From a virus (lineage: Duplodnaviria > Caudoviricetes), in the IMG/VR virus record IMGVR_UViG_3300012206_000008, positions 1 through 58,998 of that record: a DNA stretch of 58,998 nt; one strand, written 5' to 3'. The notes under the pieces are model-generated. The model was given only the letters and a program-made list of their open reading frames with translations. It was not told the origin of the DNA and made no database searches. Both the position numbers and the translations under genes were made by a program. Below, one piece after another: positions 4,756-30,944 of this stretch; the stretch's first letter is position 1, and every line of letters starts with the position of its first letter.

Positions 4756-5607
4756 TTGAGTGATCATCTCGTTTTACTTCCAAGTCATTTTTCGCCTGTT
4801 CAAGCCGTTGAGCCTGGCCATTCCAAGAGCCGTCATATTGCCGCGTCTCTGGCTAATATTCAACAGATTCTCTTACCGAACTCATGCGCCCATTTTCAAG
4901 CCCTTGTGAGTGATATCTATGCCCATTATACTGGCCAGCCTGATATCCCTGCAAATACTCTAGGGATGACACGCGATCAGGCACTAGACTACCTATCTGC
5001 TCTGAAACTCGCTGTTATCGACATGACGCCTCAATTGAATGATATTCACAGTTTTAAGCAAGAGCTCCAATGTGTCACGATTTCAGGCTTACCTGTCTTT
5101 TTGATGCTTGCAGATGAGGCTCAGTTGAAGCTAGGACAACCTGATGGTAGCGAGGGTGCTCCACTACACAATTGGCTTACAACATCCCCAGGGGCCGCTA
5201 CAAGCTTAATACGGGTAGGGTACAGCGATAGCGTAGCCAATGCGTACTACTACGATAGTCTCCTCTCACCAGCCTTTGACCAGCCCGTGGCAATTCCCTG
5301 GCAGAGTGTACAGGATAGTACTATTCTCTGCTGTCTTGCCGTGTTACCAGCATCGATAACAGTAGCACCACCTACTGACTTCCGCTACTTTGCCGGTGTT
5401 GATGCCAACGGTGCAATGCTCCCACCGAATGTCTGGCCAGTACCAGCACCACCAGCACCAACGCTTGATGTGGCAAGTGCTACGGTGAGTGCGCAGGCAT
5501 TCTTAGCAGCGTCTCAGCAGTTAGCGAGTGTGGCCGCAGGAATGAAGGTGAGTGCTGAGAGTTTGTTGAAAGTGTTGGGCAGTTCGGACAGCTCCGTGAA
5601 GGGTTAA
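4756..5607 (+). CDS. Degenerate C39-like peptidase-fold protein
   Basis: TTG start after GAGGAGG; aligns by eye with the peptidase domain of 6374-7987 but lacks its Cys/His. Confidence 0.45.
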   Translation: MSDHLVLLPSHFSPVQAVEPGHSKSRHIAASLANIQQILLPNSCAHFQALVSDIYAHYTGQPDIPANTLGMTRDQALDYLSALKLAVIDMTPQLNDIHSFKQELQCVTISGLPVFLMLADEAQLKLGQPDGSEGAPLHNWLTTSPGAATSLIRVGYSDSVANAYYYDSLLSPAFDQPVAIPWQSVQDSTILCCLAVLPASITVAPPTDFRYFAGVDANGAMLPPNVWPVPAPPAPTLDVASATVSAQAFLAASQQLASVAAGMKVSAESLLKVLGSSDSSVKG

Positions 5608-13008: not shown

Positions 13009-13791
13009 CTACTTTTCAGGATGTTTATTAGACTTCTGAGAGTTACACTTTCGGCAAGCGGGGACACAGTTCTCTTTGGTTGTACCGGCTCCATGTCCGA
13101 TAGGGATATAGTGCTCAAGGGCTTCAAATCGAGTACTTTGACAGTAGGCACAAAGAAATTTGAAGGATTGGAGCGTTTGTACCCATTCTGCTACCGTTAA
13201 CGTAGCTGGCTCACCTGCTTGTTTAGCACGATATTTCTGGGAGCGAACGCGAAGGATTTCATGTGCATAGCGACCTTTACATTCTGCACATACCTCGTAA
13301 TGCATGTCAGTCATAGGGCGTGTCCGACAAATCAAGCAAACCATTGGCTTTGGTGCCGATATCACTGGTAATTGTGGAATAACTTTTATAGGTGTCGTCT
13401 GTACTATCGCAAGTTTTTTTGAGTGGAATGCTACAGGTAAAGTGGTTGTCAATGCACAAAGAACTAGCACAGGAGCCAGCCCCACCATAAGAGGATCAAT
13501 GGTGAAAAGTTGATGTGAATATTCTGCCAACTTCCCTAATTGCTCAAAATGTTGAGCATAGACGCTGCCTAACCACCAACTCATACCAACCCATAAGAAC
13601 ATAGCCAACCAAAGACAAAAACGTGTAATCTTATCCTCACAGAAGCGTAAAGCAATTTGAAGGATAATCACGAAAGTCACAAATGCTATAGCAGGAACAA
13701 TACCTATGAAGTAAGCAACATGAACCGTGATATTGAGCAGAATAGGGGCACATATTAGAAAACACCCCCCATACATCCATATGTTTCTCAT
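13009..13791 (-). CDS. Membrane-anchored HNH endonuclease
   Basis: N-terminal TM helices; CAYC...EHYIP...NCVPACRKCNSQK; GGGAG RBS. Confidence 0.75.
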   Translation of the reverse strand: MRNIWMYGGCFLICAPILLNITVHVAYFIGIVPAIAFVTFVIILQIALRFCEDKITRFCLWLAMFLWVGMSWWLGSVYAQHFEQLGKLAEYSHQLFTIDPLMVGLAPVLVLCALTTTLPVAFHSKKLAIVQTTPIKVIPQLPVISAPKPMVCLICRTRPMTDMHYEVCAECKGRYAHEILRVRSQKYRAKQAGEPATLTVAEWVQTLQSFKFLCAYCQSTRFEALEHYIPIGHGAGTTKENCVPACRKCNSQKSNKHPEK

Positions 13792-19596: not shown

Positions 19597-20006
19597 GAGG
19601 CTGCCTCGCTTTCCTGATAGACCGGATAGTCCCCACGTGGGTCTATTGTCCCGAAGTACTTCGTTCGTGTCTTCATACCATCTCGATAGAAGCCTTTCCA
19701 ATATCCGTGACTACTTTGATGGATACCCATCGGGACCCCATCGATTAAGTGACGTTGACCGCGCACCTTGAGCGGCTTCTCTGCTGTTTCAGTGATGGTC
19801 CATTCAGGCACAAACCAGTTCCAAGCTTGCTTGATAGACTCCCATTCTTCCGCTGTGAGAAATGTCTGCGTGAGCCGTTTGTGTGTGAGTGTAGCAACAA
19901 TGGCAAAGCCCTGCTCACCTTTGTGGATACGCTTGATGGTGGTCTCGACATAGCGCGTCTCGCGGCTTATTTGCGCTATGAGCGTTTCAGCCTGGTGTTG
20001 GGTCAT
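19593..20006 (-). CDS. Hypothetical protein
   Basis: ATGA coupling. Confidence 0.55.
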   Translation of the reverse strand: MTQHQAETLIAQISRETRYVETTIKRIHKGEQGFAIVATLTHKRLTQTFLTAEEWESIKQAWNWFVPEWTITETAEKPLKVRGQRHLIDGVPMGIHQSSHGYWKGFYRDGMKTRTKYFGTIDPRGDYPVYQESEAAS

Positions 20007-29318: not shown

Positions 29319-29654
29319 ATGAGCGAACAATCGAGCATGAGTTTTCTTGGGACTCGCCCAGCATTGACACAACGCACATCACCTACCTGGGGTGAAACCC
29401 CGCTACCAGAGGCAAGTGTAGAGCCAACGAGTGGCATAACCGTCGGCCAGGTAGTACACTTTGTGCCTGTTCATGCTATGACTACCGCTTGCGAACATGC
29501 CACGATAGAAGAAGTATGGCAAGCGGCTAACGGGATTGTCAGTCTGCGCTTTGCCGATGGGCAGGTGCTTCATCGGATAGGCTATAGTGCTGAGATGCTA
29601 GGTAACTCGTGGCACTTCAACAACCAATGTGAACTGGGCACAGAAGCCTCGTGA
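29319..29654 (+). CDS. Hypothetical protein
   Basis: GAGGA RBS; TVGQVVHFV motif. Confidence 0.55.
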   Translation: MSEQSSMSFLGTRPALTQRTSPTWGETPLPEASVEPTSGITVGQVVHFVPVHAMTTACEHATIEEVWQAANGIVSLRFADGQVLHRIGYSAEMLGNSWHFNNQCELGTEAS

Positions 29655-29683
29655 TGCTCCCCCATGGACATGCGCCTGATGGC

Positions 29684-29783
29684 TTGACCCTTTTGCCACA
29701 TGCGCTATACTGGAAATAGGCCAGCAGCCCCTATCAACAACTTGGAGATCAACATCAACTACATACTGCTGGCTTCTCTTTTT
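29684..29783 (+). ncRNA. Small RNA unit 1: promoter plus stem-closed 38-nt loop
   Basis: TTGACC-16-TATACT; GCCAGCAG 29720-29727 pairs with CTGCTGGC 29766-29773; T-rich tail. Confidence 0.55.
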
Positions 29784-29786
29784 GCC

Positions 29787-29903
29787 TTGACACTTCCCTA
29801 TCTGTGACATACACTAAGCCTGGCGGCCAGTGGCACTACATATCACGTACTACACAACGATGCACGAGGCTTTTTTCCTTGCCACTGGCAAGCCCCCCCG
29901 TTT
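29787..29903 (+). ncRNA. Small RNA unit 2: promoter plus stem-closed 44-nt loop
   Basis: TTGACA-17-TACACT; GCCAGTGGCA 29826-29835 pairs with TGCCACTGGC 29880-29889. Confidence 0.55.
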
Positions 29904-29988
29904 GCTTGACACTTCCCACTACAACGACGTACACTAGAAACAGGCCAGCAGCAACGAGATGGATTCTCGCGAGTGGAGGGAAATTGCT

Positions 29989-30242
29989 GGTTTCAAAAAC
30001 CATAGACATTTCTCCCATTACCGTTTTTGAGGGGCTGTGGGAGAATAGGTCTATGGATGGGATGAGAACCAAGTTTCATCCATTCAGTACCGTGAGTTAC
30101 ACGGGAACTGGCAGGACTTGAGTCCTGTAAAACGCCTGATTGAGAGAGCGTAAGACGGGGTGACAACCTCGCAGTTTTCGTTGATGCAGGAACCGGCCAT
30201 CGTTTATGGCTTGTCCATAAACGGGTAAGTACCGGATAACGG
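29989..30242 (+). mobile_element. IS607/TnpB-derived non-autonomous remnant (right end/omegaRNA scaffold at about 30086-30242)
   Basis: TACCGTGAGTTACACGGGAA...ACGCCTG...GAG...GTAAGAC...TCGTTGATGCAGGAACC...TTTATGGCTTGTCCATAAA..GGGTAAGT...AACGG resembles recalled tnpB-element right ends; CCATAGA/TCTATGG motifs on the left; left boundary uncertain. Confidence 0.55.
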
Positions 30243-30281
30243 AAATTGCTGGAAGGTTCTCCTTGTGATTGTCTTGTCATG

Positions 30282-30334
30282 ACAAAGGAAGCTCGCTTGA
30301 TGATTGATGTGATCAAGCGAGCTTCCTTTGTTTT
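30282..30334 (+). terminator. Strong intrinsic terminator
   Basis: ACAAAGGAAGCTCGCTTGAT/ATCAAGCGAGCTTCCTTTGT perfect 20-bp inverted repeat then TTT. Confidence 0.75.
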
Positions 30335-30545
30335 CGCACTCTTCCCCCACTATTGCTAATGGATTTCTCTGTCTTCCCCTCAATTGGTACAAAAATATGG
30401 GAAAATAGCTATCATGTTGTGTTATACTTCTAAAGTATGCCTCTACCTCCAAGCATTCAGTTTTTGTTTAGTGTGTGTTTGATAATGCATTTTTGTACAG
30501 ATAAACTTTTTCCAAGGAAGAATATAGTATTGAAAGGTCAATACA

Positions 30546-30944
30546 ATGCCCACACAACCCGTCGTTTTGATTGTTGATGACCAGGCGGATATCCGAGAGA
30601 TGTTGTCAGTGGCTCTCCATATGTGGGGTTACAGGGTACTCACGGCGAGCAATGGTGACACCGCGTTGGGAATTATCGTGAATGATAGGCCGGATGTGAT
30701 CCTCTTGGATAGTTTGATGACTCCCATGAGCGGAGAAGCCTTCATCAAACAACTGTCAGTTCATGAGCGTACAATCCCTATTATTGTGATGACCGCTCTC
30801 ACTGATCGGAAAACACTTGATCGCATGTGGTCATTGGGAGTGAAACAAGTGGTCACGAAGCCATTTCGTTTGGCGGCTTTGCAAGAGCATCTCTTGTCTG
30901 TCAAAGCGGCTATGTACTCTTTATCGTCATGCGTATATAGATAA
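30546..30944 (+). CDS. Single-domain response regulator (CheY-like receiver)
   Basis: VLIVDDQ, PDVILLD (phospho-Asp), IIVMTA, VTKPF. Confidence 0.9.
   Translation: MPTQPVVLIVDDQADIREMLSVALHMWGYRVLTASNGDTALGIIVNDRPDVILLDSLMTPMSGEAFIKQLSVHERTIPIIVMTALTDRKTLDRMWSLGVKQVVTKPFRLAALQEHLLSVKAAMYSLSSCVYR

What the first reader, a model, noticed from the sequence alone, without database searches (positions are those of the whole stretch)
29906..30334. Orphan TnpB-type omegaRNA expressed by a phage with no visible TnpB
Seen: a TTGACA/TACACT promoter, then at 30086-30242 hairpins CCGTG/CACGG and GCAGGAC/GTCCTGT, CCTG...GAGAGC-GTAAGAC-hairpin-GCA-GTTTTC...CAGGAACC, a TTTATGG/CCATAAA hairpin and a terminal AACGG, then about 40 nt and a perfect 20-bp terminator. 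Established: TnpB omegaRNAs derive from IS200/605/607 right ends with the 3' flank as guide, and IS607 elements recombine at GG. The likeness to such right ends is from my recollection of the consensus. No tnpA/tnpB ORF is recognisable in the window. Inference: a domesticated guide-RNA gene (guide from 30243, AAATTGCTGGAAGGTTCTCC) that reprograms or titrates host TnpB/TldR, a TnpB analogue of RNA anti-CRISPRs or phage mini-arrays.
Basis: partly seen in the sequence, partly recalled or inferred. Interest (0 to 1): 0.88.

Follow-up and report, generated by a model that had tools for sequence, protein, structure and literature searches.

The report
Phage-borne TnpB guide RNA without TnpB
A soil phage carries, behind its own strong promoter, an intact copy of the guide-RNA scaffold that Ktedonobacteria transposons use to steer their TnpB nuclease, but no nuclease gene, so the RNA could only work with a host enzyme.

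Summary
Window 30086-30242 belongs to a structured RNA family absent from Rfam. An exact-pattern scan of 185,579 species genomes found 40 stretches, all in Ktedonobacteria or Chloroflexia-labelled assemblies. All copies end at ...AACGG (window 30242) and diverge just after it.

- **TnpB link:** the upstream ORF is TnpB in 10 of 10 tested.
- **IS607 type:** a serine-recombinase gene precedes tnpB in 2 of 8 tested.
- **Structure:** covariation is strong, 91.6% of cells paired against 30-41% in slid controls.
- **Phage record:** 99% complete, with no TnpB, resolvase or reverse transcriptase.

TnpB-less copies with their own promoter boxes are common in host genomes: 18 of 41. One host copy is collinear with window 30001-30248. 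The closest relative (86%) sits in another phage-like contig with a different guide.

No target for the guide was found, so 'weapon' or 'decoy' is not shown. Best reading: a tnpB-less IS607-type omegaRNA cassette lodged in a phage small-RNA unit, dependent on host TnpB in trans. Expression is untested.

The parts
29906..29935 (+). Promoter P3 (TTGACA-18-TACACT), third of three tandem promoters
   Evidence: shares CTTGACACTTCCC with the promoter at 29787
29942..29990 (+). Stem-loop of small-RNA unit 3 (5' arm AGGCCAGCAGC, 3' arm TTGCTGG), a paralogue of unit 1 at 29718-29785
   Evidence: direct repeat D1, 23 nt at 87% identity; sequence
29979..29990 (+). First copy of the 12-nt direct repeat GGAAATTGCTGG
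   Evidence: The second copy, 30241-30252, spans the scaffold end and the first 10 nt of the guide.
30001..30085 (+). Leader shared with a tnpB-less host copy (L078): -10-like box TGG+GAGAAT at 30038-30046 and hairpin 30060-30081
   Evidence: 70% identity over 251 aligned columns, collinear through the scaffold. L078 has TGG+TAGAAT at the same place. A separate soil contig matches 30001-30048 alone.
30086..30242 (+). omegaRNA scaffold of an IS607-type TnpB family, ending in AACGG
   Evidence: Model R1 gives 106.1 bits over model positions 1-133 of 133; the phage copy was one of the 24 sequences the model was built from.
30243..30262 (+). Presumed guide (the flank just after the scaffold)
   Evidence: All 41 host copies diverge right after AACGG. 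The length of about 20 nt is taken from what is known of TnpB, not measured here.
30282..30331 (+). Terminator-like hairpin: perfect 20-bp stem, 10-nt loop, then TTTTCG
   Evidence: I1

Best explanation
Window 30086-30242 is a true member of a structured RNA family that forms the right end, and so the guide-RNA (omegaRNA) scaffold, of IS607-type tnpB elements. These elements are abundant in Ktedonobacteria, the likely host class of this phage.

In the phage it is a tnpB-less cassette of about 240 nt. From 30001 on it consists of a -10-like box, a leader hairpin and the scaffold, and it has no recognisable left end. It sits inside the third of three tandem, promoter-driven small-RNA units.

Transcription from P3 (29906), and perhaps from the cassette's own -10 box, would run through the scaffold and about 40 nt of flank to the 20-bp terminator. 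That would give an omegaRNA whose guide is 30243-30262. With no nuclease gene in the phage, the RNA can act only with a TnpB of the infected cell.

Most likely it behaves as the tnpB-less omegaRNA cassettes of the host genomes do, as a hitch-hiking non-autonomous element. Its guide equals its own flank, so a host TnpB loaded with it would cut copies of the site that lack the cassette and so favour its retention.

Shown: homology, covarying structure, absence of tnpB, promoter and terminator motifs. Inferred: transcription, loading on host TnpB, any cleavage.
For: - **Host distribution.** The pattern scan gave 40 stretches, all Ktedonobacteria or Chloroflexia-labelled assemblies. The 41 copies share the module and diverge after AACGG.
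- **TnpB link.** Upstream ORFs are TnpB in 10 of 10 tested. By tblastn, 14 of 41 copies have full tnpB upstream, 9 partial and 18 none.
- **IS607 type.** A resolvase-type TnpA lies upstream in 2 of 8 tested.
- **Structure.** 37 pairs, 91.6% of cells paired against 30-41% when slid; 19 pairs show changes on both sides; 0 of 500 shuffles reach the covariation score.
- **Phage copy.** It matches the whole model at 106 bits (built-in member). Against its nearest relative it has 22 differences, 13 of them in paired columns over 9 pairs; 8 of the 9 pairs stay standard in both and 3 are double changes.
- **TnpB-less host cassettes.** These carry promoter boxes. Host copy L078 is collinear with window 30001-30248.
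- **No enzymes in the phage.** No TnpB, OrfB_IS605, resolvase or RT; the record is 99% complete.
- **Likely host.** Portal homologues occur in 5 of 169 genomes of the class. The best, at 64% identity, is in G029, which also has 5 R1 hits.
- **Precedent.** PATE elements that encode omegaRNAs needing TnpB in trans are described (passages of 10.1101/2023.03.14.532601).
Against: - No left end is recognisable in the phage: alignment scores to host left ends lie within the shuffle range. It is therefore not a complete MITE and may be immobile.
- No phage variant with an empty site was seen, so insertion is inferred, not observed.
- The cassette is flanked by a 12-nt direct repeat. Host copies lack such a repeat, and IS607 chemistry does not explain it.
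- The nearest relatives are only 86% and 70% alike, so a long residence under selection in phages is equally possible.
- It lies behind one of the four best promoter matches of the window and before a strong terminator, as a used gene would.
- Nothing shows that the RNA is made or bound.
Confidence: 0.6

Rival explanations
1. Domesticated phage guide-RNA gene. The phage keeps and expresses the scaffold to arm host TnpB (or a TnpB-derived repressor) against a chosen DNA, either the host's or a rival phage's, as viral CRISPR mini-arrays do with host Cas proteins.
For: - A strong phage promoter and terminator frame it.
- The structure is kept, with compensatory changes against the nearest relative.
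- That relative lies in a second phage-like contig that shares three protein matches with this phage. It has the same rare extra hairpin and a different guide.
- No left end is present, so the copy looks fixed rather than mobile.
- The mini-array precedent is described in passages of PMC11656645.
Against: - The 20-nt guide has 2 hits with 2 mismatches in 169 class genomes, against 1 for the reversed control.
- It has no second site in the window beyond a 10-nt match.
- It has 0 hits in IMG/VR.
- The relative's guide is also at chance level, 2 hits against 3 for the control.
- In this family the guide is always just the flank.
- The true host and its rival phages may be missing from the collections.
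Confidence: 0.15
2. Decoy. The scaffold soaks up host TnpB (or TldR) and so blocks its RNA-guided activity, as single-repeat RNA anti-CRISPRs do with Cas proteins.
For: - The scaffold is intact and placed behind a strong promoter.
- Sampled genomes of the class hold from 0 to 116 copies of the family, so TnpB may be plentiful in some hosts.
- The Racr precedent is described in passages of PMC11656645.
Against: - TnpB is not known as an anti-phage defence, so the benefit of blocking it is unclear. This is my own knowledge; no paper on it was found.
- A decoy would not need the sharp, canonical scaffold end followed by a terminator 40 nt later.
- Nothing here tests binding.
Confidence: 0.1
3. 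Inert relic. A fragment of an IS607-type element, captured by illegitimate recombination, is read through by chance and has no effect on phage or element.
For: - No left end, no tnpA and no tnpB.
- A 12-nt direct repeat at its borders is as expected of microhomology-mediated capture.
- Five related phage records lack it.
Against: - The copy matches the model from position 1 to position 133 of 133.
- By my own reading, only the pair in A2 columns 136 and 170 (C and A) is truly broken in the phage copy. I attribute three of the five pairs the script flagged to misalignment by MAFFT around the extra hairpin, and a fourth (columns 98 and 104) to the variable hairpin.
- 8 of the 9 pairs that differ from the relative stay paired in both, which decay would not give.
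- The same arrangement was seen in the laid runs that cover it. In X8 one contig spans 29705-30600 with 0 differences, and X9 and X10 cover parts of it. Seven further runs held all the sampled words but may be the source of this record.
Confidence: 0.15

Closest known systems
omegaRNA (right-end guide RNA) of IS607-family TnpB elements, e.g. the CboIStron studied by Zedaveinyte et al. (10.1101/2023.11.20.567912, passages read)
   Same: - A structured scaffold at the transposon's right end, with the guide being the flank just outside.
- Linked to tnpB, and sometimes to a serine-recombinase tnpA.
- Ends in GG, with the left boundary in a run of G. This agrees with the strict GG requirement and TGGG motif reported there.
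   Different: The sequence family is a different one and has no Rfam match. In the phage there is no tnpB, no tnpA and no left end, and a phage promoter drives it.
PATE-like non-autonomous IS200/IS605 elements that encode omegaRNAs used by TnpB in trans (Meers et al., 10.1101/2023.03.14.532601, passages read)
   Same: No protein gene, and an omegaRNA that needs a TnpB encoded elsewhere. The host genomes here hold such cassettes in many copies.
   Different: Those are IS605-type, with hairpin ends, and lie in bacterial chromosomes. This one is IS607-type, lies in a phage, lacks a detectable left end and sits inside a phage small-RNA unit.
Viral CRISPR mini-arrays and single-repeat RNA anti-CRISPRs (review PMC11656645, passages read)
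   Same: A virus carries only the RNA part of a host RNA-guided system and depends on the host's protein.
   Different: Those belong to CRISPR-Cas, and for mini-arrays the spacers match related viruses. Here no target was found, and neither binding nor function was tested.
TldR (nuclease-dead TnpB) with its guide RNA, some encoded in prophages (10.1101/2023.11.30.569447; search listing and start of abstract only)
   Same: A TnpB-type guide RNA exapted outside a transposon, including on phage DNA.
   Different: TldR loci encode the protein beside the RNA. This phage encodes no TnpB-like protein.
RAGATH-18-derived RNAs of IS607 TnpBs (PMC11061315; search listing and start of abstract only)
   Same: Conserved RNAs downstream of IS607 tnpB genes that guide the nuclease.
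   Different: No Rfam family reached E <= 10 on 29400-30600 apart from 10 chance-level matches, none of them a RAGATH family. None reached E <= 0.01 on six loci with host or relative copies, apart from a group II intron.

Membership tests
IS607-type TnpB omegaRNA (right-end guide RNA) | Homology in sequence and structure to RNAs encoded just after tnpB | tested here: met
   The upstream ORF is TnpB in 10 of 10 tested. 23 of 41 copies have full or partial tnpB upstream. 91.6% of cells are paired against 30-41% when slid.
IS607-type TnpB omegaRNA (right-end guide RNA) | Sharp 3' boundary at the transposon end, with a variable flank as guide | tested here: met
   All 41 host copies, and the soil contigs, diverge right after AACGG, which is window 30242.
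IS607-type TnpB omegaRNA (right-end guide RNA) | A tnpB gene in the same element | tested here: not met
   No PF07282, no PF01385 and no tblastn match in the 99%-complete record. Hence an 'orphan' copy.
IS607-type TnpB omegaRNA (right-end guide RNA) | Serine-recombinase TnpA and GG at the crossover | tested here: inconclusive
   For the family: resolvase upstream in 2 of 8 tested, the right end is ...CGG, and the left boundary lies in a run of G in 15 of 15 MITE copies. In the phage: no resolvase; GG is present at 29989-90 and 30241-42, but no left end can be placed.
IS607-type TnpB omegaRNA (right-end guide RNA) | The RNA is made, is bound by TnpB and guides cleavage next to a TAM | not testable with these tools
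   No run on record as RNA holds the stretch.
MITE/PATE-type non-autonomous transposon | Both transposon ends present, no coding capacity, many copies | tested here: inconclusive
   The right end is present and there is no ORF with a family match. Host genomes hold many copies (116 R1 hits in G006). The phage copy is single and has no significant left end: scores of 24-25 against shuffle means of about 20 and maxima of 35-36.
Any Rfam family | Match at or above the gathering score | tested here: not met
   0 matches in the window. Only sub-threshold hairpin matches at E <= 10. None on the host copies.
Retron msr/msd, tRNA or tmRNA | Adjacent reverse transcriptase; tRNA-like fold | tested here: not met
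   No RVT_1 in the record. ARAGORN finds nothing.

The most novel reading that the evidence does not exclude
Phages and phage-like elements of Ktedonobacteria keep stand-alone, promoter-driven omegaRNA genes that load onto the host's many TnpB nucleases. The loaded nuclease would cut rival genomes, or cassette-free versions of the phage's own genome. That would be a TnpB counterpart of viral CRISPR mini-arrays, or an RNA-only gene drive in a phage population.
Probability: 0.2. Interest if true: 0.85.

Novelty: new variant of a known kind. Interest (0 to 1): 0.6.

Why it matters
TnpB guide RNAs are known as parts of transposons and, in bacteria, of protein-less PATE elements that borrow TnpB in trans. 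A structurally intact scaffold on a phage, without the nuclease and framed by a strong promoter and terminator, would be a virus carrying only the RNA half of this older RNA-guided system.

Four searches of the paper library found no such case described.

Whether it is selfish or used by the phage, it gives a concrete, testable case of trans-acting omegaRNA in phage-host conflict. It also defines a new omegaRNA family with more than a hundred copies in one Ktedonobacteria genome.

Tried and rejected
- **Known RNA families:** none.
- **Retron, tRNA or tmRNA:** no RT; ARAGORN finds nothing.
- **Reference phages:** no DNA match to 29680-30340.
- **Relatives through the two flanking proteins:** none in IMG/VR. 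The upstream ORF has one homologue, P0002, at 76% identity.
- **Related phages found by portal** (6 loci at 47-84% identity): no DNA similarity in 5 records, best E 0.09, and no R1 hit in 0 of 5.
- **Other IMG/VR contigs with the family pattern:** 0.
- **RNA evidence:** no RNA holder listed among 12 runs.
- **Empty-site variant of the phage:** none. The only joint seen, skipping 30110-30201 in one X8 contig, comes from another element. The 22-mer 30241-30262 has 0 hits in IMG/VR.
- **Guide targets:** chance level in 169 genomes, for the phage guide and for the relative's guide. In the window there is only the 10-nt match at 29981-29990.
- **tnpB remnants:** none in the window, L074 or L075. 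The only hit is an ORF of L031 that reads through the RNA module itself.
- **Left end in the phage:** not significant.
- **Integrases:** no tyrosine integrase and no resolvase.
- **Long hairpin 30000-30056:** considered as an RNA element and rejected. Its arms are not kept in L078, whereas the -10-like box inside it is.

Full report
**What is there**

The window is a whole IMG/VR virus record of 58,998 bases, estimated 99% complete. It is a tailed phage with a large terminase, an SPP1-type portal, a Mu-F-like protein and a major capsid protein.

Between a small plus-strand ORF (29319-29654) and a receiver-only response-regulator gene (30546-30944) lie three tandem sigma-70-type promoters, at 29684, 29787 and 29906. 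Each matches 10 of 12 consensus positions. TTGAC-N15-19-TAYACT occurs 4 times in the window against 0.21 expected, and 3 of the 4 are here.

Units 1 and 3 share 23 nt after the -10 box, and units 2 and 3 share CTTGACACTTCCC. The third unit runs on for about 400 nt to a perfect 20-bp hairpin followed by TTTTCG. It folds far better than shuffles, z -8.5, though the other strand also folds well, z -7.7.

**What 30086-30242 is**

No Rfam family matches. No tRNA or tmRNA is found, and there is no match in reference phages.

The lead came from laying contigs of four soil metagenomes on 29600-30600. Besides the phage's own contigs, three contigs of higher depth (about 7 to 22, against 3 for the phage) matched only 30085-30195, with 8 differences. 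At least a dozen short contigs matched only 30203-30242, or up to 30246. All ran on unlike the window before 30085 and after 30242. That is the behaviour of a multi-copy element with sharp ends.

A degenerate pattern from the conserved 3' part was scanned over one genome for each of 185,579 species. It gave 40 stretches, all in Ktedonospora formicarum, Ktedonobacter sp. or MAGs labelled Ktedonobacteraceae or Chloroflexia. The 41 copies share the module and all diverge directly after ...AACGG, which is window 30242.

- **Link to tnpB.** In 10 of 10 loci tested, the same-strand ORF of 372-529 aa that ends about 88 nt before AGGAACC, or overlaps it, carries OrfB_IS605, the Cas12f1-like TNB domain and, in 9 of the 10, HTH_OrfB_IS605. 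By tblastn over all 41 copies, 14 have full-length tnpB upstream, 9 have partial tnpB (several cut by the locus edge) and 18 have none.
- **IS607 type.** In 2 of 8 tested, the ORF before tnpB is a resolvase-type serine recombinase, which is the IS607 arrangement.
- **Limits of the homology.** BLAST of 29600-30600 against the 41 copies aligns only within 30086-30255.

**Structure**

On an alignment of 24 copies (the phage, its nearest relative and 22 host copies), the RNAalifold consensus has 37 pairs in 8 helices.

| Measure | This structure | Control |
|---|---|---|
| Cells forming standard pairs | 91.6% | 29.6-41.5% when the 3' partners are slid by 1-3 columns |
| Covariation score | 0.352 | at most 0.094 when slid |
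| Pairs with changes on both sides | 19 of 37 | 6-10 when slid |
| Shuffles reaching the paired percentage or the covariation score | 0 of 500 | not applicable |

The same structure could in principle be a DNA feature, but its place and polarity are those of omegaRNAs.

A covariance model built from this alignment (R1) finds one hit in the window: 30086-30242 on the plus strand, 106.1 bits, model positions 1-133 of 133. The phage copy was in the training set, so this shows completeness, not independent detection.

R1 finds 116 hits in K. formicarum, 5 in G062, 5 in G029, 3 weak ones in G107 and none in G154. Rfam has no family for the host copies either.

**No nuclease in the phage**

The record holds none of the following:
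- PF07282, PF01385 or RVT_1;
- resolvase or tyrosine integrase;
- any tblastn trace of eight family TnpBs.

**TnpB-less copies are ordinary in the hosts**

Two K. formicarum sub-families are short cassettes.
- **Sub-family A:** about 250 nt.
- **Sub-family B:** carries TTGCGT-N17-TATAAT a few bases before the scaffold.

In all 15 copies examined, the point on the left where copies stop being alike falls in a run of 3-5 G. The right end is ...CGG. This agrees with the strict GG requirement and TGGG motif reported for an IS607 TnpA (passages of 10.1101/2023.11.20.567912).

A search of 169 genomes of the class with 29680-30084 gave one clear match. In G062 (locus L078) a tnpB-less copy is collinear with window 30001-30248, with 176 of 251 aligned columns identical. 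Phage and L078 share:
- a -10-like box (TGG+GAGAAT at 30038-30046; TGG+TAGAAT in L078);
- a leader hairpin (30060-30081);
- the scaffold.

L078 also has a left end like sub-family B, with a score of 38 against a shuffle mean of 22 and maximum of 37. The phage has none, with scores of 24-25 inside the shuffle range.

**Nearest relative**

A 20-base stretch specific to the phage's extra hairpin found two metagenome contigs, L074 and L075. They match 30085-30245 at 86% identity.
- They too lack tnpB.
- They have -10-like boxes and a leader hairpin upstream, and a different sequence after AACGG.
- The module lies between an IS110-type transposase gene and a helicase-methylase gene.
- L075 encodes phage-type replication proteins: helicase-methylase, HNH endonuclease and a helicase of phrog_1967.
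- L075 shares three protein-level matches with this phage, at window 13018-13260, 19602-20006 and 4816-5370.

It is therefore probably a distantly related phage or other mobile element. This is not proven.

Between the two copies there are 22 differences, 13 of them in paired columns over 9 pairs. 8 of the 9 pairs remain standard pairs in both, and 3 are double changes.

**The guide and the repeat**

The presumed guide (30243-30262) has 2 hits with 2 mismatches in 169 genomes of the class, against 1 for the reversed control. It has no second site in the window within 5 mismatches, and GG plus the guide has 0 hits in IMG/VR. The relative's guide is likewise at chance level, 2 hits against 3 for the control.

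The one oddity is a 12-nt direct repeat at 29979-29990 and 30241-30252. The first 10 nt of the guide, preceded by GG, recur just before the cassette, where they form the 3' arm of unit 3's stem.

If the DNA between the repeats were removed, unit 3 would look like unit 1. The site would then read G-run plus the full guide, which is the canonical target of such an omegaRNA. Host copies show no such duplication, so it is not a regular product of transposition. I cannot explain it. An insertion between two tandem 10-mers, microhomology-mediated capture, or selection on RNA pairing are all possible.

**Host**

The family pattern was found only in Ktedonobacteria-type assemblies. Portal homologues occur in 5 of 169 genomes of the class, the best at 64% identity in G029, which also carries the RNA family on other contigs. 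The host is therefore likely a member of this class. This is inferred.

**Reading**

Homology to a TnpB omegaRNA scaffold is established, and so is the absence of tnpB. Transcription is inferred from motifs only, and no RNA run holds the stretch (see Tried and rejected).

Protein-less PATE elements whose omegaRNAs need TnpB in trans are already described in bacteria (passages of 10.1101/2023.03.14.532601). Such cassettes abound in the likely host class. The most economical reading is therefore a hitch-hiking, tnpB-less IS607-type cassette that has landed in, or been captured by, a phage small-RNA unit and relies on host TnpB.

The bolder readings have precedents only in CRISPR (PMC11656645) and no support from target searches here. 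These are a phage-used guide against host or rival DNA, or a TnpB decoy. They are not excluded, because the copy is old, intact, strongly framed and shared with a second phage-like element.

I found no paper describing an orphan omegaRNA on a phage. One preprint treats phage-borne tnpB itself (one passage). Supplements were closed and may bear on this.

Noticed in passing
window 29684-29993: Three tandem promoter-driven small units, each with a GCCAG-type 5' arm pairing with a CTGG-type 3' arm. Units 1 and 3 share 23 nt and units 2 and 3 share 13 nt. Their function is unknown, and they have no match in 169 class genomes beyond short chance-level hits.
   Followed up: partly
G006 (Ktedonospora formicarum), e.g. 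L020, L023, L039: At least 116 hits of the omegaRNA model in one genome. These include two tnpB-less cassette sub-families of about 250 nt; one of them carries a TTGCGT-N17-TATAAT promoter just before the scaffold.
   Followed up: partly
L074 about 4803-4818 (minus strand), 148 nt downstream of its scaffold end: The relative's guide has a 13-of-16 match preceded by GGGGG inside the downstream helicase-methylase gene. This mirrors the phage's partial self-match next to a G run. It may be chance, roughly 0.005-0.08 expected.
   Followed up: no
window 30110-30201 (run X8): One soil contig joins 30109 to 30202, a shorter natural variant of the scaffold that lacks the middle 92 nt.
   Followed up: no
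window 30001-30048: A separate soil contig matches only this stretch, which holds the -10-like box, at about 81% identity. The promoter box may be a module of its own.
   Followed up: no
window 30546-30944: A phage-encoded stand-alone response-regulator receiver domain (PF00072, E 5e-24), directly downstream of the RNA locus.
   Followed up: no
L050 6927-7004 and 7014-8000 (minus strand): A group II intron (Rfam RF00029, 50 bits), with its RT-maturase-HNH ORF, lies directly upstream of a tnpB of this family.
   Followed up: no
L075 3731-5179: An IS110-family transposase gene lies directly upstream of the tnpB-less scaffold in the closest relative. The insertion is absent from, or different in, sister contig L074.
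   Followed up: no
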